NCBI GenBank assembly: GCA_963765125.1
Contig: CAVXUZ010000004.1
Span: forward strand, 128,792-192,791
DNA: 64,000 nucleotides
Direction of reading: 5' to 3'
Source of the DNA: an uncultured candidate division WWE3 bacterium
GTDB taxonomy: Bacteria; Patescibacteriota; WWE3; UBA101185; UBA10185
Part shown: positions 9,146 through 18,800 of the stretch, piece after piece
Numbering within the stretch: position 1 is the stretch's first letter
How the letters are laid out: every line of letters begins with the position of its first letter
The notes under the pieces: generated by a model
Databases searched by the model: none
What the model was told of the DNA's origin: nothing
The model's input: only the letters and a program-made list of their open reading frames with translations
Made by a program: the position numbers and the translations under genes

Positions 9146-10699
9146 TTATCTAACTTTGGGCGTGTGATACAAATCCTTCATCTTTTTGCCAAACATCATT
9201 CTTGTTTGGGCGTCGATAAATGGAAAAAATGAGAAGGTAAGCAGGTTAACCATAATTGCGATTGCTTCAAAATTCATAATAACCTTTTTTATGAGTGGCC
9301 ACTCTTTTGGCATTGGAGGAGTCAACTTTGCTCTGTAGTAAGTCGGCGGAATGAGTAATATGAGTGTCAGGGTTAGAATAAAGCTCATCGTATCGGGTAG
9401 GCTGTATGCAAAACTACTTTGTTTAATAGATGGATTAACAAGAGTTAAAATAGCAAATCCAAAAGTTATTAGGTAAACCATGTTAAACATAATGATTCTT
9501 GTTTTTAAATGCGCGTAAATCCAAACTATTTTTTTAGAAAAAGCAATTTTTTTATTTTTTATAAATATTTTGAACGATAATGGAACAGAAATTGCGCCCC
9601 AACCCCATCTAAATAGCTGCTTATACAAACTTTTGTGCGAGTGTATAAAATCTTTTCCTTCAACAGCGTCTGCTGAGTAAGGTATGTAGTGCCCTGCAAT
9701 TTTAAAATTACCATCGCGAATATAAAAAGCTCTCCAGTAAAAAATGGTGTCGTCTACGCCAAGCTGTACATCCCAATAATCAATATCTATTAAAGTCTGT
9801 AAAGAGCTTGAATACGCAGCAAATGTATCTTTGGCCAATGAGCTTAACCCCCAAGGAATACTCCTCGTTGAAAGAATTCCTAAGGTTACAAAATTGGCCT
9901 CAATTCTTGCCATTGATTGAACACGCCAGTGATTGTTGTTAAAAAGACAAACTGCTGTTTGATAAAAGTGGTTATCACGACCATCGGTGGTTAAATATAA
10001 ATGTGTAAGCCTCGCCACATACTGTCTGTCTAAAATATGGTCTGCATCAAATGACGAAAAAATATAATTTCTCAAATCTCTACCAACTTCCTTCATATGT
10101 GCAATTGCGTGCTTTGCACCCCATGTTCTGTTTGCGCCTCCCACACCAATTGCTTCACCTATTATTCCTGCTGGGTGAACGTAATATAAAATCTCTTCAA
10201 AATTTTCTCTCTCTGCGTTTACCACTTTATCTAGATTCTCGATTGTTTCTTTTGAATATTTCTCTTCAATTGTAAAAACCAACGTCATAGATTTTGTGGG
10301 ATACGTTTGATCTGTAAAAGATTTAAAAGTGTCTCTCAATATGTCGTACGGTTCGTTCACAACAGGAATTAAAATCATGTGTCTAACGTCTTCTAGTGAG
10401 TTTGGAAGCGTGGCCTTGTCTGGGAGATCTTCAAAATTTAACGCATGACACTGCGCTGCCCAATCCTCAGCCATTTCATTTTTATATCTTGGGTAACCTA
10501 TTGCTAAACCTATGGTATTCATAAGCGCAAGATACGACCAATACATCGTAATAAAAGTCAAAAAGTAAACCATCGCCTGTGGGTACAGAAATCCCAACCA
10601 AATTGGCGATAAGATTGTTATCCACATCAATAGCCCCGGCAGTATTTCGAACAGGCGCTGTATTAACTTGTCGTGCTTCTCAAGCTCAATTGTTGTCAT
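9146..10699 (-). CDS. Family 2 glycosyltransferase, processive (cellulose-synthase-like) type
   Basis: It has N- and C-terminal TM segments, a DxD motif (FDADHILD) and a QxxRW motif (QLFRWGWG). Confidence 0.7.
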   Translation of the reverse strand: MTTIELEKHDKLIQRLFEILPGLLMWITILSPIWLGFLYPQAMVYFLTFITMYWSYLALMNTIGLAIGYPRYKNEMAEDWAAQCHALNFEDLPDKATLPNSLEDVRHMILIPVVNEPYDILRDTFKSFTDQTYPTKSMTLVFTIEEKYSKETIENLDKVVNAERENFEEILYYVHPAGIIGEAIGVGGANRTWGAKHAIAHMKEVGRDLRNYIFSSFDADHILDRQYVARLTHLYLTTDGRDNHFYQTAVCLFNNNHWRVQSMARIEANFVTLGILSTRSIPWGLSSLAKDTFAAYSSSLQTLIDIDYWDVQLGVDDTIFYWRAFYIRDGNFKIAGHYIPYSADAVEGKDFIHSHKSLYKQLFRWGWGAISVPLSFKIFIKNKKIAFSKKIVWIYAHLKTRIIMFNMVYLITFGFAILTLVNPSIKQSSFAYSLPDTMSFILTLTLILLIPPTYYRAKLTPPMPKEWPLIKKVIMNFEAIAIMVNLLTFSFFPFIDAQTRMMFGKKMKDLYHTPKVR

Positions 10700-11524: not shown

Positions 11525-12943
11525 TTACAGCCTAGGAAACATACTTTCTGGGGATTTTACTTTTCCTGATTCGAAGACTTTTAGTATTGTTTCAGCTGCA
11601 TTTGGAATAAAAGGTTGGAGTTGGAAAGCAATATTTTTTAGTGAATTAATTTGCTCAGTTAGTACTGCGCGTAATTCTTCTCTGTCTTCAATTTTCCATG
11701 GTTCTTTTTCGTTAATGTTTTTATCTAAATCTGCGAGTGTTTTAAAAATATTACTTAGTACTTTATCAACCCTAAAGTCCTCAATGGGTTTAAAAAGTTC
11801 GTCATCTATTTCAAACAGGTTAGCAAATTTAAAATCTAACTTTGAGCGCTCAGCAAGTTTTGCGAGTCTTGCAACCGTGTTACCTAACCCGCTTGCAAGT
11901 TCTCCGTTATAAACTTCTTCGAGTTGCTGAATCGATAGATCGGCATCTTCTACAATTGGGCCGTTTCTTAATAAATAGTATCTAACAGCATCTACACCAT
12001 AAGTCTCAACAAGTTCTTTAGGTCTTATAACATTGCCTAATGATTTACTAATTTTTTGTCCACCAAGATTTATAAAACCGTGAATATAAATTTTATCTGG
12101 TAAACGATAGCCTGCGCTCTTTAGCATCGCTGGCCAGAGAAGCGCGTGCCATCGAGAAATGTCTTTACCAACAAAATGTGTAATTTCAGTTTTGTCATCC
12201 CAAAACCCTTTAGCTAAGCCTTCGGTAAGATAATTTATAAGAGCGTCAAACCAGACATAAATCACTTGCTCAGAATCATTTGGTGCAGTAATTCCCCAAG
12301 ACACTTTATATTTTGGACGTGTCACCGTAACGTCTTTAAGACCCTGCTCTATAAAAGCGAGCATCTCTGTTCTTTTACTAAGCGGTCTCACTAAAAGTTT
12401 ATCGGTTTCAATTAATTCTTTAAGAAAATCAGAATACTTTGAAAGTTTGAAAAAATAATTTTCTTCGTCGAGTTCCTGAATTTGTCTATTTTTATGGTTT
12501 GGGCATTGTTTGTTTTCGTCTAATTCAGAAAGTGTTTTGGTTGATTCACATCCTTCGCAATAGTAACCTTTGTAGGAAGCTTTATAAATGTCCCCGGCCT
12601 CAAAAGACTTTTTAAAAAACTCAGAAGAAAACTTTACGTGATCTTCGTCTGTCGTTCTAATAAATCTTTGGTAAGAGATGTTTAATGTGTCTATCTGCTC
12701 TTGGTCAGCTTTTGAAATTTCTGTAACGTGCTCCAACGGTGTAAGCCCGCGCCTCTGTGCTGCTTTTTCATTTGTAGTGCCGTGTTCATCAGTACCAATG
12801 GTCAGGTAAACATGGGCATCATCTTTCTTTAACCTCTCATATCTAGCGACTGCGTCGGCGAGTACTTTCTCATAGGCGTGGCCAACGTGTACTACGTCGT
12901 TTGCGTAATCTATTGCGGTTGTAATAAATACTTTGTTTTTCAT
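11525..12943 (-). CDS. metG: Methionyl-tRNA synthetase
   Basis: HIGH-region HVGHAYEKVLADAVARY, a zinc knuckle CEGCES...CPNHK and KMSKS-region KISKSLGNVI are all present. Confidence 0.9.
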   Translation of the reverse strand: MKNKVFITTAIDYANDVVHVGHAYEKVLADAVARYERLKKDDAHVYLTIGTDEHGTTNEKAAQRRGLTPLEHVTEISKADQEQIDTLNISYQRFIRTTDEDHVKFSSEFFKKSFEAGDIYKASYKGYYCEGCESTKTLSELDENKQCPNHKNRQIQELDEENYFFKLSKYSDFLKELIETDKLLVRPLSKRTEMLAFIEQGLKDVTVTRPKYKVSWGITAPNDSEQVIYVWFDALINYLTEGLAKGFWDDKTEITHFVGKDISRWHALLWPAMLKSAGYRLPDKIYIHGFINLGGQKISKSLGNVIRPKELVETYGVDAVRYYLLRNGPIVEDADLSIQQLEEVYNGELASGLGNTVARLAKLAERSKLDFKFANLFEIDDELFKPIEDFRVDKVLSNIFKTLADLDKNINEKEPWKIEDREELRAVLTEQINSLKNIAFQLQPFIPNAAETILKVFESGKVKSPESMFPRL

Positions 12944-13004: not shown

Positions 13005-13367
13005 CTAGCGCCTGAGCCTCAATTGAAAATATAAAAGAATATAGAAAATCAGAAACAATGCAATATTTGCAATGTGGTCTAATTTGAAAGTTCGTAACAT
13101 CATCAAAAAAACTAAACCAAAAGATAAATATGCCGACCAGCGCAAACTTTTTCTGTAGACTTGGCGAAGATTACTAAACGTCGGTGCTTTGTAATGAAAA
13201 TAAAAATACAAAGGAATAGATGCTGTAGCTAGAACAGCAAAAAAAATTAACAACAAAAATATAAAAATGCTTAAAAAGGTTGAGGGTTTTGAGTAGAAAA
13301 TATATTTGTAAGCACTTAACCACAATAATAAGCTAACAATAACTGTCGTATACAAAAACTTGGGCAT
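13005..13367 (-). CDS. Small hypothetical membrane protein
   Basis: The 120-aa ORF is very hydrophobic. Confidence 0.4.
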   Translation of the reverse strand: MPKFLYTTVIVSLLLWLSAYKYIFYSKPSTFLSIFIFLLLIFFAVLATASIPLYFYFHYKAPTFSNLRQVYRKSLRWSAYLSFGLVFLMMLRTFKLDHIANIALFLIFYILLYFQLRLRR

Positions 13368-13411
13368 ATGTTGATTTTAGCACTTAAAAGACCCAAACGT
13401 TGGTAGCACTA

Positions 13412-13440
13412 TTGACCGCGTATGGTAGTCGTTATACTAT
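13412..13440 (+). promoter_or_regulatory. Sigma70-like promoter of sORF module 1 (TTGACC, about 17 nt, TACTAT)
   Basis: The -35 TTGACC lies at 13412-13417 and a -10-like TATACT/TACTAT at 13433-13440. The element is repeated at 13999. Confidence 0.5.
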
Positions 13441-13505
13441 TGGAGCAACCGGAGATTTTGACACCGTACTCGATTTTCACTGTTTTAAAGCCTAGCGGAG
13501 GGCCT

Positions 13506-13541
13506 ATGGGACACTTTGAGGTTTTGACCAAAAAGCTTTGA
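13506..13541 (+). CDS. sORF1, 11 aa (MGHFEVLTKKL)
   Basis: GGAGGG lies 4 nt upstream of the ATG. The conserved leader ACTGTTTTAAAGCCTA..GGAGGGCCTATG is shared with sORF4. Confidence 0.35.
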   Translation: MGHFEVLTKKL

Positions 13542-13601
13542 TCGGGATTGAGTTGCTGACTGGTGAAACGGTGTTTTTCGTAAACTTAAGGAGATGAGCC
13601 T

Positions 13602-13676
13602 ATGAAAAGATTTAAAAAGTTTGTGGGCACCATGGGCAAATTAGCCAGCCCAATTACTGGTTCTGACGTCGGATAA
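13602..13676 (+). CDS. sORF2, 24 aa (MKRFKKFVGTMGKLASPITGSDVG)
   Basis: AAGGAG lies 8 nt upstream of the ATG. A 33-nt RBS/start block (AACTTAAGGAGATGAGCCTATGAAA.GATTTA) is duplicated at sORF3. Confidence 0.45.
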   Translation: MKRFKKFVGTMGKLASPITGSDVG

Positions 13677-13776
13677 GACAAGCTCGAGCTTAATGGACGA
13701 TCAGAGTCTAGTTGACAGGGTTTTAAGGGAAGTAATCGTATAAAAGGCGAACTTTAAAACTTAAGGAGATGAGCCT

Positions 13777-13854
13777 ATGAAACGATTTAGTTATGCTTTG
13801 TTTTCTAAATGTGAAGTGACAGTCGAAGATCACGGCCCGGTAACCATCGGATGA
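13777..13854 (+). CDS. sORF3, 25 aa (MKRFSYALFSKCEVTVEDHGPVTIG), paralogue of sORF2
   Basis: It has the same SD/start block and MKRF N-terminus as sORF2, then diverges. This pattern suggests a coding duplication. Confidence 0.45.
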   Translation: MKRFSYALFSKCEVTVEDHGPVTIG

Positions 13855-13898
13855 ACATCCTGTATTATGTTCGTTGGTAAGTTACCAGCCAAAACTAC

Positions 13899-13939
13899 GC
13901 AGGTGAGGTATATATAAAAAATACTTCGCCTGCTTTTTT
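13899..13939 (+). terminator. Rho-independent terminator closing sORF module 1
   Basis: A 12-bp stem GCAGGTGAGGTA/TACTTCGCCTGC with two G-U pairs and an 11-nt loop is followed by TTTTTT. Confidence 0.6.
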
Positions 13940-13998
13940 AATACCTAACTTGTGTAAACGTGAACTATTCCAGTTATTTTGTTATGCCGACAGTACTA

Positions 13999-14027
13999 TT
14001 GACCACACACAGTAGTCGTTATAATAT
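13999..14027 (+). promoter_or_regulatory. Sigma70-like promoter of sORF module 2 (TTGACC, 15-17 nt, TATAAT/TAATAT)
   Basis: It is a second copy of the ~100-nt promoter/leader repeat (ACTATTGACC...GTAGTCGTTATA.TATTG...CCGTAC...ACTGTTTTAAAGCCTA). Confidence 0.5.
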
Positions 14028-14095
14028 TGTTGTAATCGGCGCAGGTTAACCACCGTACCAGTTTTTTTACTGTTTTAAAGCCTAATGGAGGGCCT

Positions 14096-14137
14096 ATGAA
14101 ACAATCAGTAAAGTTAAATGGTGTGTCTTCAGGTTAA
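14096..14137 (+). CDS. sORF4, 13 aa (MKQSVKLNGVSSG)
   Basis: It has the same GGAGGGCCTATG start context as sORF1. A possible 27-aa ORF at 14211 without an SD follows in the same transcript. Confidence 0.35.
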   Translation: MKQSVKLNGVSSG

Positions 14138-14319
14138 TGCTCAGTGGAGCGAATGTTGCGTAGGAGTTGTACAAGTTGCCCGTGCCTGATCAACACCGTG
14201 CAACTGTAAGATGGAAGGCCGTGTTGTTTACCGACTGGGTGTGCAGACGATGAGAAATAGAGGTTTTTACACTGCATCATCCGACCGTGAGTAACCAATA
14301 GCTAACCATAATTGTTTTA

Positions 14320-14364
14320 CCGGTGAGGTACAGATGGATAACAGTACTTCACCGGCAATTTTTT
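14320..14364 (+). terminator. Rho-independent terminator closing sORF module 2
   Basis: A stem CCGGTGAGGTAC/GTACTTCACCGG with one G-U pair and a 12-nt loop is followed by CAATTTTTT. The stem sequence is related to the module-1 terminator (GGTGAGGTA...TACTTC.CC). Confidence 0.6.
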
Positions 14365-14398
14365 ACCTCAAACTATAAATATCTGCTAAAATCTCATC

Positions 14399-15511
14399 AT
14401 GCTAACATTCCAAACCTTAGTTCTTATTGCACTACTTGTTGCCGGCGCAGCCGGAATCATCATTTATGCCTTTTCTAAACAAATGAATAAGCTCAAAGTG
14501 GATATCCAAAATGATGAGGAAGACAAAGTATTGATGGAGTGGTTAAAGGACATGAAGGGCTCGGTTGAAAAAAATTCAACGGTCTTAGATAGCAAGCTCA
14601 CCGATCAAAATAAAACACTGCAGGAGCAACTCGAGGCACAAAGAAAAGCTGTCGCAGACCAAACAAAACTTATTTGGGAAAGATTAGAGTACTCGTCAAA
14701 AGTTATTCAAGAGGTACACAGAGAACTTGGTGGAATTACAGAGTTTGGAAAAGATATGAAGGACCTTAGTAACATTTTAAAATCTCCAAAATTACGTGGG
14801 GGTTTAGGCGAACAGTTTTTATATGAAATTCTAGAAAATTCGCTACCAAAAGAGTTATTCAAAACACAATATAAGTTCAAAGATGGAAGTATATGCGACG
14901 CAGTAGTTAAAACAGATAAAGGTTTGATTGCGATTGATTCAAAATTTCCAATGGAAAATTTTAAAGAGATGGTGACACGAGATTCGCAAGAGGAACGCGA
15001 TCAGTACAAAAAGTTATTTATGCGCGATGTTAAAAAAAGAATTGATGAAATTTCATCAAAATATATTTTGCAAGAAGAGGGTACTACGGACTTTGCCGTT
15101 ATGTATGTTCCTTCAGAAAATATTTATTACGAGCTGATAGTAAACTCTGCTGAAATTGAGGACTACTCGCGAAATAAAAAAGTATTTATCACATCACCAA
15201 ACACACTTACCTACCAAATGAGAGCAATTTTAGTTGCTTACCAACAAAGCGAACTACAAAAACACGCGGGAGAAATTTTGAAAGCTTTGTCAGGAATAAA
15301 AAATGAAGCGGGAAAATTTAATGAAGACCTAGATCTTTTAGGTGGGCATGTATTAAGAACGTATAAGGCGATGGACGGTGTAAAACTGAAATTTACAAAA
15401 CTATTTGGAAAGATAGAAAGCGCACAAGCGTTAGGAGCACCGCATGAAGAAGATCACCCCAAACTTGCGGACGAAACAGTCGAAGAGTCTATTCAAGATT
15501 TAGAACAGTAA
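14399..15511 (+). CDS. rmuC: DNA recombination protein RmuC
   Basis: It has an N-terminal TM helix, a long coiled-coil and a conserved RmuC core (DFAVMYVPSENIYYELI). Confidence 0.7.
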   Translation: MLTFQTLVLIALLVAGAAGIIIYAFSKQMNKLKVDIQNDEEDKVLMEWLKDMKGSVEKNSTVLDSKLTDQNKTLQEQLEAQRKAVADQTKLIWERLEYSSKVIQEVHRELGGITEFGKDMKDLSNILKSPKLRGGLGEQFLYEILENSLPKELFKTQYKFKDGSICDAVVKTDKGLIAIDSKFPMENFKEMVTRDSQEERDQYKKLFMRDVKKRIDEISSKYILQEEGTTDFAVMYVPSENIYYELIVNSAEIEDYSRNKKVFITSPNTLTYQMRAILVAYQQSELQKHAGEILKALSGIKNEAGKFNEDLDLLGGHVLRTYKAMDGVKLKFTKLFGKIESAQALGAPHEEDHPKLADETVEESIQDLEQ

Positions 15512-15541: not shown

Positions 15542-15570
15542 AAGCTCCATTTTTGTTTTAAATGGAGCTT
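15542..15570 (-). terminator. Perfect 11-bp hairpin AAGCTCCATTT-TTGTTTT-AAATGGAGCTT between convergent rmuC and the small minus-strand gene; the U-tract is on the minus-strand side
   Basis: The inverted repeat was read directly from the sequence. The plus-strand sequence GAAAAATAA precedes it, which is a U-tract for the minus transcript. Confidence 0.6.
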
Positions 15571-15580
15571 CTACGTATTA

Positions 15581-15805
15581 TTACCTGTTTACTATTGGCC
15601 TTTTGTATACAGTCTCGAAAAAGGCAACAATCACGGCAATACCAAAAATAGCCACCAGCACAAGCGGTATGTTTTTGTAGACCCAAACTAAGCCAGCGAC
15701 GGTAGCTGCAAAAATTGCAACCCAAAACAACACAATAAATATTTTTTCTATCACGGCCTCTCCTTTATGGATTTGTAAGTGGAGATAGCACAAAAAGCAC
15801 CACAC
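15581..15805 (-). CDS. Small two-TM membrane protein
   Basis: The 74-aa ORF has two hydrophobic helices. Confidence 0.4.
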   Translation of the reverse strand: MWCFLCYLHLQIHKGEAVIEKIFIVLFWVAIFAATVAGLVWVYKNIPLVLVAIFGIAVIVAFFETVYKRPIVNR

Positions 15806-15856
15806 AAACTAGCTCCACTATTAATACGAGGATGAGCACAAGCTCTGTTAATCCTC

Positions 15857-18800
15857 TTGATTTTACTTGTCTCTCTCCCATTTTTTCTCCTAATATATGA
15901 AGGTTTTTGGTTTTTCTATCGCGCAGTCAGGCTCATAAACACAATGGATATGAGCGCTACAATAAGCGCTATTCTTACTGCCATTCCTAGCAGTTTTCTT
16001 GCGTTTTTCTTGAAAGTACTCATTTTTTCTCCTCTTTTTTGTTCTATAGGTTGTGGTAATATTATACCTGAACTCATTTTTATGCAAATTAACGAAGAGC
16101 AGAAAAAAGCAATAGAACATAAAAACGGCCCGCTTCTGGTGGTAGCCGGAGCAGGAACTGGCAAAACTCGCGTAATTACAGAGCGTATAAAATGGCTTAT
16201 TGACAATAAAAAAGCCAACCCGCAGGAAATTCTAGCGCTAACCTTTACCGATAAGGCGGCAAATGAGATGTCGGACAGGATTGACGACGTAATGCCTATA
16301 GGCTACGAAGAGCCCTTCGTTAACACATTTCATGCATTTTCAGATAGAATCCTAAAAAAAGAGGGCCTAGAGATAGGCTTAGACCCATCTTATAAGGTTT
16401 TAGCAGGTCCGGAGCAGTGGCTCTTACTTAGAAAACATCTGTTTGATCTAGACATCAAATACTTCAGACCCCTTGGAAATCCAACTAAATTTATTTCGGC
16501 TATTTTAAAACTGGTCTCACGTCTTCAAGATGAGAATATTTCTGTTGGTGATTTTGAAAATTTTGTTGATAACTTTGAGGGTGGCGCGGAAGAAAAAGAT
16601 AGGTGGAGAGAGCTTGGGTATATTTACAAAAGATACCAAGAAATAAAAATTGAGAATTCAAAAATGGACTTTGGGGATTTAATTACTTGGACCATAAAAT
16701 TATTTTCTGAACGTCCAAACATTTTAAAGAAATATCAAACTCAATTTAAACACGTACTCGTGGATGAATTTCAAGATACAAACTATGCGCAGTATCAAAT
16801 GGTAAAAATGATTTGCCCTCAGGAGTTAGGAGAAAGAAGTTTGCTCGCGGTGGGTGACGATTCACAATCAATTTATAAATTTAGGGGTGCAGCAGTTTCT
16901 AACATTCTTGAGTTTATGAAGGATTATCCATCAGCACAAATGATTACCCTCATAAATAATTACAGATCAACACAAAAAATTCTAGATGCGGCATATAAAT
17001 TAATACAAAACAACAATCCAGACAGCCTTGAGTCAAAACTCGGTCTTTCTAAAAAATTAATTTCACAAAAAACAAAAGAGGAAGAAAAAATTAAGCCTGA
17101 AATACTGCAGGTCGCAACAATTGATGATGAGGTTGAATTAGTTATTTCTAAAATTTACGAGGTACTAGCAAAAGAGCCGACTTATACATACAAGGACATC
17201 GCTATTTTAGCCCGTGCTAATAACCATCTTGATGCGTTTGTTATGGCTTTACGAAAACACGGATTACCCTATCAGCTTGTCGGTAATAGAGGCCTTTACG
17301 ATCAAGATGAGATAAGAAACGTTGTTGGTTTACTAAAAATAATTGTTAACCCTAAAGACTCATCGAGTCTATATCGAGTACTTAATATAGAGGTTTTTAA
17401 TATTGATCAAAAATACATTGCGCAAATGCTCTCGCAGGCTAAACACAGAAAAGTAGATTTGTGGGAAGTATTAGAAACAACAAAAATAGTAGAGGTTGAG
17501 AATTTGAAGGATTTAATTTCAACGTATCAAAACGAAATCACTAAAAAATCGCCCGTTGAATTTATATACAGCCTAGTTCACGAGTCGGGCTATCTCAACA
17601 CGTATTTAGAGCACGAGTCTATCGAGAATAATCTAGCTATAAAGAATTTGGATCTCTTTTTAAATATTGTTAAAAGATTTGAAATTGAGTTTAGATCTGA
17701 TACAAAAAATATTCCAACCGTACTTGAGTTTTTAGACTATCTCGAGTTAGTAATCGATGCGGGTGATAATCCAGCCCAAGCCGAAATTGAGGATATAGAC
17801 ACTATCAACTTACTTACTGTCCATTCTGCAAAGGGTTTAGAATTTCCAGTTGTTTTTATGATAAATCTCGTTTCTGGTAGATTTCCCACAAACAACAGAG
17901 GTGATGCTTTGGAGATGCCCGAAGAACTCATTAAAGAGGCTCTACCAACTGGAGACGAACACGTTCAAGAAGAAAGACGACTGTTTTACGTCGGCATGAC
18001 GCGCGCTGAAAAGTATCTGTATCTTACACTGGCAAAAAACTATGGCGGAAAAACAGAAAAAAAGCCAAGCGGCTATTTAACAGAAACAGGTTTAAAAATT
18101 CAAGAAACAGAGGTTAAAGCTGCGCTCAAGAAAACTGAACAAAGAGGCTTATTTGGGGTTGATTCTGCGTTTAGAAATCCTCAATCAATTAAAACCGATT
18201 TTACACCGAGCTTTTTAAGTTACTCTCAAATTGAAACTTACAAAACATGCGCATTAAAGTATAAGTACAGTTACGTTTTAAATGTTCCGACTGCACCGGG
18301 GCACGCTTTAAGTTTTGGTACAACAATTCATGACACACTCAGAGACTTTCACCAGAAAAAATTATTTGGTGATGTTTCATACGATGAGATGCTAAATATG
18401 TACGAAAAAAATTGGCACCCTCTCGGATACCTAGATGAGAAACACCGACAACATAGATTTGAGGACGGAAAAGAATTACTCAAAGAGTATTACGAAAGAC
18501 ATAAAAACGATAAAAAACAACCTGAGGCTTTAGAAAAATCATTTAACTTAAAGGTTGGGGGAATAAAGTTTTTTGGAAGAATAGACCGTATCGACAAATT
18601 AGAAGGCGGCGTAGAAATTATCGACTATAAAACAGGTACTACAAAAACACAAAAAGAGGTAGACGAAGATGACCAGGTCGCGTTTTACGCAATCGCGGCA
18701 AAAGAAGCTCTCGGTATGGTGCCTGAAAAACTTACGTACTATTTTCTAGAGAGCGGTGAGAGAATTTCAACGTTTAGAACAGACGAGCAGCTAAAAGAAA

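What the first reader, a model, noticed from the sequence alone, without database searches (positions are those of the whole stretch)
13380..14400. GC-enriched 1-kb intergenic island with two paralogous promoter/leader modules driving four tiny ORFs
Intergenic spacers elsewhere in this window are mostly under 100 nt, yet here about 1 kb has no ORF of 60 aa or more on either strand. Its local GC is about 45-47%, against roughly 25-38% in the flanks. A ~100-nt unit occurs twice, at 13407-13510 and 13994-14100. Each copy has a consensus-like -35 TTGACC, the conserved block GTAGTCGTTATA.TATTG, then CCGTAC, then ACTGTTTTAAAGCCTA..GGAGGGCCTATG. Each ends in a strong SD plus ATG that opens an 11- or 13-aa ORF. 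Module 1 then carries two further sORFs sharing an identical 33-nt RBS/start block (AACTTAAGGAGATGAGCCTATGAAA.GATTTA). Both encode MKRF... peptides of 24 and 25 aa that diverge after the N-terminus. Three of the four peptides end in Gly. Each module is closed by a strong rho-independent terminator, and the two terminators share stem sequence (GGTGAGGTA...TACTTC.CC). Conserved promoter, RBS and N-terminus with divergent bodies argue for expressed small proteins. Candidates are precursor or leader peptides, type-I-toxin-like peptides or signalling peptides. No maturation or partner genes are adjacent (the flanks are metG, a small membrane protein and rmuC). The elevated GC leaves a structured-ncRNA interpretation open.
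Basis: seen in the sequence. Interest (0 to 1): 0.85.

Follow-up and report, generated by a model that had tools for sequence, protein, structure and literature searches.

The report
Orphan tandem mini-gene island in WWE3
A 1-kb stretch inserted between two neighbouring genes of an uncultured WWE3 (Patescibacteria/CPR) bacterium carries two sister mini-genes, each with its own promoter, textbook ribosome-binding sites, tiny ORFs and a strong terminator; nothing like it turned up in any database searched, so it is probably a lineage-specific set of small-peptide or regulatory-RNA genes rather than a large structured RNA.

Summary
Window 13368-14398 is the only large ORF-free gap in the 64 kb. 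It holds two paralogous units (about 13405-13939 and 13992-14364, + strand). Each unit has a TTGACC-17-TAnTAT promoter, a conserved leader and one or three SD+ATG tiny ORFs. Each ends in a -20 kcal/mol hairpin followed by T6.

New findings:
- The genome is candidate division WWE3, where most genes look leaderless.
- In about 40 relatives the two flanking genes sit back to back, 21-190 nt apart. The island is therefore a lineage-specific insertion of about 975 nt.
- Two other lineages (L003, L039) carry unrelated small units at the same site.
- No homologue of the island turned up in Rfam, phage, plasmid, viral, metagenome or GTDB-representative searches.
- The four ribosome-binding sites form one ~45-nt cassette family.
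- The R2/R3 20-mer starts long ORFs in 25 of 28 unrelated metagenome contigs.
- Codon usage of the four sORFs weakly favours coding (P≈0.02).
- Without their terminators the unit bodies fold no better than mRNA (z -1.25 and -0.04). A relative's RNase P RNA gives z -4.3.

Best reading: orphan small-peptide mRNAs, possibly doubling as sRNAs. Function is unknown. Interest is moderate.

The parts
13395..14368 (+). Approximate extent of the lineage-specific insertion. It lies between the divergent core promoters of the 120-aa gene and rmuC.
   Evidence: Junction comparison with L001, L004, L007, L009, L052, L056, L053 and L011. In these loci the two genes are 26-98 nt apart and only the TGnTAnAAT boxes are shared.
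13374..13382 (-). Extended -10 box (TGCTAAAAT) of the 120-aa membrane-protein gene, 6 nt before its ATG. This is a leaderless-type promoter and is not part of the insert.
   Evidence: The same arrangement is seen in the relatives.
13405..13513 (+). 5' module, copy 1: promoter, about 60 nt of leader, and the first RBS/start.
   Evidence: Repeat families D1, D2 and D5; alignment A1; nhmmer.
13412..13440 (+). Putative promoter P1: -35 TTGACC (13412-13417), 17-nt spacer containing the conserved GTAGTCGTTA, and -10 TACTAT (13435-13440). The inferred transcription start is about 13447.
   Evidence: It is conserved in the paralogue. The reading frame across it shows 8 amino-acid changes in 9 changed codons, so it is not coding (inspection).
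13478..13520 (+). RBS cassette R1: AU-rich tract, GGAGG, GCCT, ATG.
   Evidence: alignment of R1-R4; fold.
13506..13541 (+). sORF1, 11 aa, MGHFEVLTKKL.
   Evidence: Codon score +0.28 bit/codon.
13572..13618 (+). RBS cassette R2 (AAACTTAAGGAGATGAGCCTATGAAA).
   Evidence: The 20-mer marks gene starts in unrelated metagenome contigs.
13602..13676 (+). sORF2, 24 aa, MKRFKKFVGTMGKLASPITGSDVG (net charge +4).
   Evidence: Codon score +0.31.
13747..13793 (+). RBS cassette R3. Over its 33-nt core it is 32/33 identical to R2.
13777..13854 (+). sORF3, 25 aa, MKRFSYALFSKCEVTVEDHGPVTIG.
   Evidence: Codon score +0.12.
13899..13939 (+). Intrinsic terminator T1: 13-bp stem followed by T6.
   Evidence: dG -20.0 kcal/mol, z -6.1.
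13992..14103 (+). 5' module, copy 2.
13999..14027 (+). Putative promoter P2: -35 TTGACC, 17-nt spacer, -10 TAATAT. The inferred transcription start is about 14034.
14068..14110 (+). RBS cassette R4.
14096..14137 (+). sORF4, 13 aa, MKQSVKLNGVSSG.
   Evidence: Codon score +0.29.
14138..14319 (+). Body / 3' UTR of unit 2. It has no convincing ORF and no excess structure. An AGGAG-N9-TTG 25-codon ORF at 14176-14253 has a negative codon score.
   Evidence: z -0.73 for 14138-14312; -0.17 bit/codon.
14320..14364 (+). Intrinsic terminator T2: 12-bp stem followed by T6.
   Evidence: I1; dG -20.4, z -4.5.
14384..14392 (+). Extended -10 box (TGCTAAAAT) of rmuC, 6 nt before its ATG at 14399. It is conserved in relatives that lack the island, so it is not part of the insert.

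Best explanation
The island is a lineage-specific insertion of about 975 nt. It sits between the divergent, leaderless-type promoters of a 120-aa membrane-protein gene and rmuC, in a candidate division WWE3 (Patescibacteria) chromosome.

It consists of two tandem sister transcription units on the + strand, each self-contained:
- Unit 1 runs from about 13447 to 13939 (about 490 nt).
- Unit 2 runs from about 14034 to 14364 (about 330 nt).

Both start at a conserved sigma-70-type promoter (TTGACC-17-TAnTAT). Its spacer, GTAGTCGTTA, is also conserved, which suggests an overlapping operator. Both carry a conserved leader of about 60 nt and end at related strong intrinsic terminators. The terminators insulate the units from each other and from rmuC.

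Translation would start at copies of one ~45-nt initiation cassette: an AU-rich tract, GGAGG or AAGGAG, GCCT, ATG, and usually AAA as the second codon. Unit 1 has three copies and unit 2 has one. They open ORFs of 11, 24, 25 and 13 codons that encode small, non-hydrophobic, mostly basic peptides.

I infer that the units are mRNAs for tiny peptides. The first ORF of each unit is conserved only in its initiation region, so there the act of translation may matter more than the peptide itself. The RNAs may also act as regulatory RNAs.

Shown: the anatomy, the paralogy, the insertion status, the lack of homologues and the lack of excess RNA structure.
Inferred: transcription, translation and any function of the peptides.
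For: - Insertion: about 40 syntenic WWE3 loci have the two flanking genes 21-190 nt apart.
- Self-contained units: the promoter pair is conserved between the paralogues. The terminators have dG about -20 kcal/mol, z -6.1 and -4.5, each followed by T6. rmuC keeps its own TGCTAAAAT-N6-ATG promoter, as in relatives without the island.
- SD+ATG density: 4 sites in 1 kb, versus about 12 distinct sites in the remaining ~127 kb counting both strands.
- Cassette family: the four sites align as one family.
- The R2/R3 20-mer AAGGAGATGAGCCTATGAAA occurs in 28 metagenome stretches from unrelated taxa (GC 26-60%). In 25 of them the ATG opens an ORF of 44 aa or more.
- Codon usage: all four sORFs score positive. 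The pooled score is 0.237 bit/codon, against a null of -0.004±0.12 (P≈0.02). Real genes average 0.37. Frame 0 is the best frame for all four.
- The only R2/R3 difference is a synonymous AGA/CGA change.
- A precedent lies nearby: an SD-led operon of three small membrane proteins at 15581-16023 on the minus strand.
- The bodies are mRNA-like, not structured: z -1.25 and -0.04, versus 0.19±0.77 for coding controls and -4.3 for RNase P RNA. The conserved 5' modules have local z of about 0 to +1.
Against: - No expression data exist.
- No orthologue exists, so neither dN/dS nor covariation can be measured.
- ORF lengths of 11-25 codons are not longer than chance in 41% GC sequence.
- The sORF1 and sORF4 peptides share nothing after Met. 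sORF2 and sORF3 share only MKRF and a C-terminal Gly, so there is no evidence of selection on peptide sequence.
- The sharp edges of the repeated blocks fit conservation of an RNA or DNA signal as well as they fit coding.
- The codon-usage signal is weak (P≈0.02, 69 codons).
- Unit 2 has about 180 nt after its 13-codon ORF with no evident purpose.
- The promoter scan itself is at chance level.
- The GGAGG-to-ATG spacing in R1 and R4 is only 4 nt.
Confidence: 0.5

Rival explanations
1. The two units are sibling trans-acting, or dual-function, small regulatory RNAs. Like OmrA/OmrB, two adjacent genes would keep conserved 5' and 3' ends around a divergent centre. The conserved leader and 'RBS' blocks would then be seed or protein-binding regions, and the tiny ORFs would be incidental or secondary, as in RNAIII or SgrS.
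For: - The architecture matches: tandem paralogues with a conserved 5' ~110 nt, related terminator stems and unrelated interiors. OmrA/OmrB are described as adjacent, almost identical at the 5' and 3' ends, and distinct in the centre (PMC2588501).
- The conserved 5' region is unstructured, as a seed region would be.
- The peptide sequences are not conserved between paralogues.
- Unit 2 has a long ORF-free body.
Against: - The units are 330-490 nt, much longer than typical base-pairing sRNAs.
- The most conserved transcribed block is a complete, textbook translation-initiation region whose 20-mer serves as a gene start elsewhere.
- Codon usage is mildly coding-like.
- No complementary target was found within the 64-kb window, although the rest of the genome was not available.
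- Conservation starts at about +18, not at +1.
Confidence: 0.25
2. The island is a non-functional relic. Foreign or duplicated DNA, for example decayed gene cassettes from a phage or another bacterium, landed in a permissive site between two promoters. Promoters, RBSs and terminators survive, but the coding bodies have decayed into tiny ORFs.
For: - The island is absent from all relatives, and no homologue was found anywhere.
- Its GC content and SD-led design are atypical for a genome where only 6 of 55 genes have an SD and at least 21 look leaderless.
- The same site holds unrelated inserts in L003 and L039, which suggests a permissive hotspot.
Against: - Uniform decay would not leave 97%- and 80-90%-identical blocks with sharp edges beside unalignable sequence.
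- Six-frame translation shows no decayed long frame and no Pfam or PHROG signal.
- Both terminators and both promoters are intact.
- Streamlined genomes of about 1 Mb with about 90% coding density are expected (general knowledge) to delete junk quickly. This is the only such gap in 64 kb, and gaps of this kind were rare in the related loci scanned (954 kb held in all).
Confidence: 0.15
3. The island encodes one or two large structured non-coding RNAs: a ribozyme, a riboswitch, or a divergent RNase P, tmRNA or 6S.
For: - GC content is elevated by about 8-10 points over other intergenic gaps.
- GC skew is positive.
- Rfam gathering thresholds can miss CPR RNAs: the RNase P RNA of L038 scored 96.3 bits against a threshold of 100.
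Against: - An Rfam E-value-mode scan of the island gives nothing better than E=2.4. The same mode finds L038 RNase P at E=4e-30.
- ARAGORN finds no tmRNA.
- The bodies without terminators fold at z -1.25 and -0.04, versus -4.3 for RNase P.
- The two-sequence consensus fold has no compensatory pair.
Confidence: 0.04
4. The island is a cis-regulatory leader-peptide attenuator controlling rmuC, or it is a type I toxin-antitoxin pair.
For: - A short ORF followed by a terminator lies directly upstream of rmuC.
- Tandem duplicated small-ORF loci are typical of type I TA systems (general knowledge).
Against: - rmuC keeps the same leaderless TGnTAnAAT-N6-ATG promoter as relatives without the island, downstream of T2. 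Read-through would give an SD-less internal start.
- Unit 1's terminator is followed by another promoter, not by a gene.
- The leader ORFs have no regulatory codon runs.
- The peptides are not hydrophobic.
- No antisense unit is evident: minus-strand promoter-like hits are at chance level, and inspection of the sequence shows no minus-strand terminator.
Confidence: 0.05

Closest known systems
OmrA/OmrB-type sibling sRNAs (adjacent paralogous genes in E. coli)
   Same: Two adjacent, co-oriented, independently transcribed paralogues lie in one intergenic region. Their 5' parts and terminators are conserved and their centres are unrelated (PMC2588501).
   Different: The units are 4-6 times longer. 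They carry complete SD+ATG initiation cassettes with tiny ORFs. No Hfq-type context or targets are known. The strongest conservation is not at the extreme 5' end.
Dual-function sRNAs / small-protein mRNAs (e.g. S. aureus RNAIII with hld, E. coli SgrS with sgrT, B. subtilis SR1 with SR1P). These examples are from general knowledge.
   Same: Stand-alone transcripts of 200-500 nt carry an SD-led ORF of fewer than 50 codons and long untranslated parts.
   Different: There is no sequence or structural homology. Unit 1 holds three sORFs. No function or target is known, and expression is untested.
SD-led small membrane-protein operon in the same window (15581-16023, minus strand)
   Same: It is in the same genome and also has strong SD sites, duplicated RBS blocks (AGGAGAAAAAATG twice), ORFs under 60 codons and a terminal hairpin.
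   Different: Those proteins are clearly transmembrane (hydropathy 3.0-3.5). Small minus-strand genes also occupy the rmuC-addA gap in relatives, though their homology to these three was not tested. The island peptides are soluble and orphan.
Type I toxin-antitoxin repeats (Ldr/Rdl, Ibs/Sib, Zor/Orz). From general knowledge.
   Same: Tandemly duplicated intergenic units of a few hundred nt with a tiny ORF and conserved 5' UTRs.
   Different: There is no hydrophobic toxin and no evident antisense or overlapping sRNA.

Membership tests
Any Rfam 15 RNA family | Covariance-model score at or near the family's gathering threshold | tested here: not met
   There is no hit in the island at gathering thresholds. 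The best hit in E-value mode is E=2.4 at 14.8 bits, a SAM-SAH fragment over the promoter. As a positive control, the same mode finds a WWE3 RNase P RNA at 96 bits, E=4e-30.
Large structured ncRNA (generic) | Folding energy clearly below dinucleotide shuffles; covarying helices | tested here: not met
   The bodies without terminators give z -1.25 and -0.04, like coding controls at 0.19±0.77. RNase P gives z -4.3. None of the 15 consensus pairs is compensatory. Only two sequences were available, so covariation has little power.
Type I toxin-antitoxin | Small hydrophobic, membrane-inserting toxin peptide | tested here: not met
   The maximum 15-residue Kyte-Doolittle hydropathy is 0.08-0.62 (-0.30 for sORF4) for the island peptides, versus 2.97-3.48 for neighbouring genuine small TM proteins.
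Type I toxin-antitoxin | Antisense or overlapping antitoxin RNA with its own promoter and terminator | tested here: inconclusive
   Two minus-strand promoter-like sites exist, but hits are at shuffle frequency. Inspection of the sequence shows no minus-strand hairpin with a T-run. Transcript data are needed.
Leader-peptide transcription attenuator | Leader ORF and terminator lie in the 5' UTR of the regulated gene, which depends on the upstream promoter | tested here: not met
   T1 is followed by promoter P2. T2 is followed by rmuC's own conserved TGCTAAAAT-N6-ATG leaderless promoter, which is present in relatives lacking the island.
RiPP / bacteriocin precursor peptides | Conserved leader with variable core, and adjacent maturation, export or immunity genes | tested here: not met
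   sORF2 and sORF3 share only MKRF, and sORF1 and sORF4 share nothing. Neighbours within about 8 kb are housekeeping genes: TatD, MetRS, RmuC, AddA-like helicase, FemAB, a glycosyltransferase and a response regulator. The rest of the genome was not searchable.
Sibling sRNAs of the OmrA/OmrB kind | Adjacent paralogous genes with conserved 5' and 3' ends and a divergent centre | tested here: met
   The family description is from PMC2588501. This is a resemblance in architecture only.
Sibling sRNAs of the OmrA/OmrB kind | The conserved 5' end base-pairs with target mRNAs (chaperone-assisted) | not testable with these tools
   Only 64 kb of the genome is available. No significant complementarity was found within it.
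CsrB/RsmZ-type protein-sponge RNA | Many GGA motifs, enriched and displayed in hairpin loops | tested here: not met
   There are 15 GGA motifs, against 14.0±2.7 in shuffles.
Mobile element (IS/MITE, integron cassette, CRISPR or TIGR array) | Terminal inverted repeats, attC sites, regularly spaced repeats, or an adjacent transposase, integrase or effector gene | tested here: not met
   There are no terminal inverted repeats and no regular repeat spacing. The R blocks are spaced 95, 175 and 320 nt apart. No such genes appear in the neighbourhood. A possible 8-9-nt direct repeat at the borders (ACCCAAAC / ACCTCAAAC) is too weak to count.

The most novel reading that the evidence does not exclude
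The gap between the divergent leaderless promoters of the 120-aa gene and rmuC may be a recurrent landing or birth site for orphan mini-genes in WWE3 genomes. Three lineages carry unrelated, rmuC-co-oriented small units there:
- this window, with two SD-led sORF units;
- L003, with six or seven units of about 110 nt, each a promoter plus hairpin plus T-run;
- L039, with an SD-led orphan 77-aa ORF.

On this reading the window's island is a young, actively expressed peptide/RNA module built by reusing one portable promoter-leader-RBS cassette. It would be an example of how ultra-small symbiont genomes invent or acquire new small genes.
Probability: 0.25. Interest if true: 0.6.

Novelty: new member of a known kind. 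Interest (0 to 1): 0.4.

Why it matters
CPR/Patescibacteria have tiny, densely coding genomes. The one CPR transcriptome paper consulted says its organism has no validated small RNAs (bioRxiv 10.1101/2022.03.25.485537).

A 1-kb non-coding-looking insertion with intact promoters, textbook ribosome-binding sites and strong terminators is unlikely to be tolerated for long unless it is used.

If the units are expressed, they would be among the first candidate small-peptide or sRNA genes in WWE3. They would also give a concrete case of strain-specific small-gene gain at a defined hotspot.

The practical value is limited for now. The element is an orphan from an uncultured organism, and its function cannot be inferred.

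Tried and rejected
Homology searches that found nothing useful:
- Rfam at gathering thresholds and at E<=10 gave no hit in the island. ARAGORN found only tRNA-Cys at 1449-1523.
- TTAAAGCCTANNGGAGGGCCTA gave 0 hits in genome contigs. TTTAAAGCCTANNGGAGGGCC gave 0 hits in metagenome contigs.
- Of three viral-contig scans, two found nothing. The third gave two hits to the promoter pattern, and both lie inside a phage CDS on the other strand, so they are chance matches.
- blastn 'distant' against phages and plasmids gave no match.
- blastn and nhmmer of the island, the 5' module and the R blocks against 954 kb of fetched loci gave only chance hits, or the loci that were selected by the 20-mer itself.
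- Exact-protein look-ups of the window's RmuC and the 120-aa protein returned 'not on record', so the source genome's other contigs could not be reached.
- A protein search with the 54-aa minus-strand ORF, meant to find homologous islands indirectly, found no candidate.
- Pfam and PHROGs searches on all island ORFs of at least 24 aa found nothing. One PHROG hit at E=0.096 was ignored.

Ideas considered and dropped:
- Coding across the 'promoter' (ORFs 13400-13495 and 13960-14049, including a 'VVIGAG' Rossmann-like string): the paralogue differences are nearly all non-synonymous.
- Similarity of 14030-14044 to rmuC codons at 14436-14450 (family D6, 15 nt at 80%), and of 13331-13346 to 14300-14315 (family D4): too short, treated as chance.
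- Read-through joining sORF1 and sORF2, which share a frame: four stops intervene.
- A fifth sORF at 14176-14253 (AGGAG-N9-TTG): its codon score is negative.
- A CsrB-like sponge: GGA motifs are not enriched.
- A shared SD-occluding hairpin in R1, R2 and R4: the shapes are the same, but z-scores run from 0.03 to -1.27 and the only changes are one-sided, so it is unproven.

Full report
**1. What is there**

Window 13368-14398 (1031 nt) lies between two genes. On the left is a 120-aa ORF on the minus strand (13005-13367, no Pfam hit). On the right is rmuC (14399-15511, PF02646, E=4e-51). No ORF of 60 aa or more exists there on either strand; the longest is 54 aa. It is the only genuine ORF-free gap over 300 nt in the 64 kb. 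The other listed gap, 235-1387, is a minus-strand ORF that runs off the window end.

Mean GC of the island is 41.1%, with 200-nt peaks of 44.5-46%. The window averages 37.8% and the other intergenic gaps are 31-34%.

**2. The repeats are real and not chance**

- 13405-13452 matches 13992-14039 at 77%.
- 13474-13513 matches 14064-14103 at 88%.
- 13582-13614 matches 13757-13789 at 32/33.
- The terminator stems share GGTGAGGTA.

The 30-nt leader pattern has 2 hits against 0.00 expected. blastn-short gives E=9e-7 and 2e-10, and nothing else in the window matches.

Outside these blocks the two units are unalignable.

A new observation is that all four SD/start regions align as one ~45-nt family. 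R1 is 13478-13520, R2 is 13572-13618, R3 is 13747-13793 and R4 is 14068-14110. The consensus is TTTAAARCYTAA-GGAG-(1-4 nt)-GCCTATG-AAA.

**3. Transcription-unit anatomy**

Each unit begins with TTGACC-17-TACTAT or TTGACC-17-TAATAT. The scan finds no more promoter-like sites than shuffles do (5 versus 5.3). The case for these promoters therefore rests on their conservation in both paralogues, including the spacer GTAGTCGTTA, and on their position.

The frame that is open across the promoter block changes 8 amino acids in 9 altered codons between the paralogues, so that block is not coding.

Each unit ends in a strong hairpin plus T6:
- 13899-13933, dG -20.0 kcal/mol, z -6.1.
- 14320-14355, dG -20.4 kcal/mol, z -4.5.

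The inferred transcripts are about 13447-13939 and about 14034-14364.

**4. Organism and genomic context**

RmuC homologues place the window in candidate division WWE3 / Patescibacteria (record titles). An identical protein sits on a 294-kb NCBI/ENA contig that could not be retrieved.

Most genes in the window look leaderless. Of 55 ORFs, 21 have a TAnnnT box 4-9 nt before the start codon, and only 6 have an SD-like motif. Both genes flanking the island have TGCTAAAAT-N6-ATG.

The neighbourhood is housekeeping: TatD, MetRS, RmuC, an AddA-like helicase-nuclease, FemAB-like proteins, a glycosyltransferase and an OmpR-type response regulator.

**5. The island is an insertion**

Synteny (TatD-metG-120-aa gene | rmuC-addA) is conserved in the fetched loci. 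In about 40 relatives the 120-aa gene and rmuC are 21-190 nt apart. This includes the closest relatives, with RmuC at 75-81% identity: L052, L001, L004, L007, L009, L053 and L056.

Junction comparison puts the insert at about 13395-14368. The two core promoters on either side are retained.

Two other lineages carry something else at the same site, also co-oriented with rmuC:
- L003 has about 970 nt of unrelated sequence. It is made of six or seven units of about 110 nt, each a -10-like box, a hairpin and a T-run. Its first unit is a TGCTAAAAT-N6-ATG leaderless 21-codon ORF.
- L039 has an SD-led orphan 77-aa ORF plus a terminator.

The site therefore appears permissive or recurrent for small inserts (3 of about 45 lineages).

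**6. No homologue anywhere**

Every search outside the island came back empty or gave only chance matches:
- Rfam at gathering thresholds and at E<=10.
- ARAGORN.
- Exact-pattern scans of GTDB representatives, JGI metagenomes and IMG/VR. The two IMG/VR hits are in a phage CDS.
- blastn against phage and plasmid collections.
- blastn and nhmmer against 954 kb of related loci.
- Pfam and PHROGs on the island ORFs.
- A protein search with the 54-aa antisense ORF.

**7. Coding versus structured RNA**

*(a) Structure.* Without the terminators, the unit bodies fold at z -1.25 and -0.04. Twelve coding controls give 0.19±0.77. A WWE3 RNase P RNA (L038) gives -4.3. In 100-nt windows only the terminators stand out, and the conserved 5' modules have z between 0 and +1. 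The two-sequence consensus fold has no compensatory pair. Rfam's gathering threshold did miss the L038 RNase P (96.3 bits against 100), but E-value mode finds it at 4e-30. The same mode finds nothing in the island.

*(b) Translation signals.* AGGAG or GGAGG followed 3-9 nt later by ATG occurs at 4 sites in the island. There are about 12 distinct sites in the other ~127 kb counting both strands. The 20-mer AAGGAGATGAGCCTATGAAA occurs in 28 metagenome stretches from unrelated organisms (GC 26-60%). In 25 of them the ATG opens an ORF of 44 to more than 430 codons, with no flanking similarity. It is therefore a generic, proven initiation region, and this is convergence rather than homology.

*(c) Codon usage.* All four sORFs score positive: +0.28, +0.31, +0.12 and +0.29 bit/codon. 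The pooled score is 0.237. The null, from ATG-ORFs in dinucleotide shuffles of the island, is -0.004±0.12 (P≈0.02). Real genes average 0.37. Frame 0 wins for all four. The only R2/R3 difference is AGA versus CGA, both Arg.

*(d) Against peptide function.* sORF1 (MGHFEVLTKKL) and sORF4 (MKQSVKLNGVSSG) share only Met. sORF2 and sORF3 share MKRF, a Gly at position 20 and a terminal Gly. ORF lengths are not beyond chance.

*(e) Peptide properties.* The peptides are not hydrophobic, unlike the three genuine small TM proteins encoded by an SD-led operon at 15581-16023 on the minus strand.

**8. Verdict on mechanism**

I rank the readings as follows:
- Orphan, self-contained small-peptide transcription units, possibly bifunctional: about 0.5.
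- Sibling or dual-function sRNAs with OmrA/OmrB-like architecture (PMC2588501): about 0.25.
- Relic of foreign or duplicated DNA: about 0.15.
- Large structured RNA, rmuC attenuator or type I TA: about 0.1 in total.

The sharply bounded conservation of promoter, spacer, leader, TIR cassette and terminator, next to unalignable interiors, argues that the expression signals are under selection. What is expressed matters less, or evolves fast.

**9. Novelty and interest**

The kind of element is known: stand-alone sORF or sRNA genes as tandem paralogues. This instance is an orphan in a phylum where small RNAs and peptides have hardly been studied. For TM7x, the one CPR transcriptome paper consulted notes 'no currently validated small RNAs' (bioRxiv 10.1101/2022.03.25.485537).

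It is a well-formed and testable candidate, but there is no family, no partner genes and no expression data.

Noticed in passing
window, all gene starts (e.g. 13367-, 14399+, 22358-, 25107-, 27770 region, 36175+, 38011+, 56160+): Many genes appear leaderless, with an (extended) -10 box TGnTAnAAT 4-9 nt before the start codon. This applies to 21 of 55 ORFs, while only 6 of 55 have an SD-like motif. Full-text searches combining 'leaderless' with the CPR/Patescibacteria names brought up no paper that, by title or abstract, deals with leaderless translation in CPR; only one of them was opened.
   Followed up: partly
window 15581-16023 (minus strand): An SD-led operon of three small transmembrane proteins (35, 38 and 57 aa) lies between rmuC and addA. 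Two of them share the identical RBS block AGGAGAAAAAATG, and a terminator hairpin follows at about 15545-15575. The mechanical addA ORF start (TTG 15857) overlaps this operon. The real start is probably ATG 16083 (MQINEEQKK...), which would give about 946 aa, matching the 937-972 aa of relatives.
   Followed up: partly
L038:15732-16054 (minus strand): This is an RNase P RNA (bacterial class A) of a WWE3 MAG. It scores 96.3 bits, just under Rfam's gathering score of 100, so a default Rfam scan reports nothing there. E-value mode finds it at E=4e-30, and it folds at z -4.3.
   Followed up: yes
L003:3030-3990: At the same site between the 120-aa gene and rmuC, another WWE3 genome has about 970 nt of unrelated sequence. 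It forms six or seven tandem units of about 110 nt, each a -10-like box plus hairpin plus T-run, all co-oriented with rmuC. The first unit is a leaderless 21-codon ORF (TGCTAAAAT-N6-ATG). Rfam gives no hit.
   Followed up: partly
L039:9240-9540: At the same site a more distant relative (57% RmuC identity; the record is labelled Saccharimonadales) carries an SD-led orphan 77-aa ORF (9258-9491) with a terminator. Its RBS is AAAGGAGATGAGC-ATG. It has no Pfam or PHROG hit and no tblastn hit in the other loci.
   Followed up: partly
L056:3492-4303: In this relative the rmuC-addA gap is about 810 nt. It holds several small minus-strand SD-led ORFs that encode hydrophobic peptides.
   Followed up: no
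L014:20446-20546: A borderline Rfam hit to RF03531 (the C. difficile sRNA 'n00280', described by Rfam as lying within a helicase gene) scores 65.3 bits against a gathering score of 65.2. It is more likely conserved helicase coding sequence than an sRNA.
   Followed up: no
window 13390-13397 and 14365-14373: A possible short direct repeat sits at the two borders of the insert (ACCCAAAC / ACCTCAAAC). It is too short to call a target-site duplication.
   Followed up: no
window 12700-12899: Inside metG, GC content reaches 48.5% in one 200-nt window. This exceeds any window in the 'GC-enriched' island, so the GC contrast claimed for the island is less exceptional than stated.
   Followed up: no
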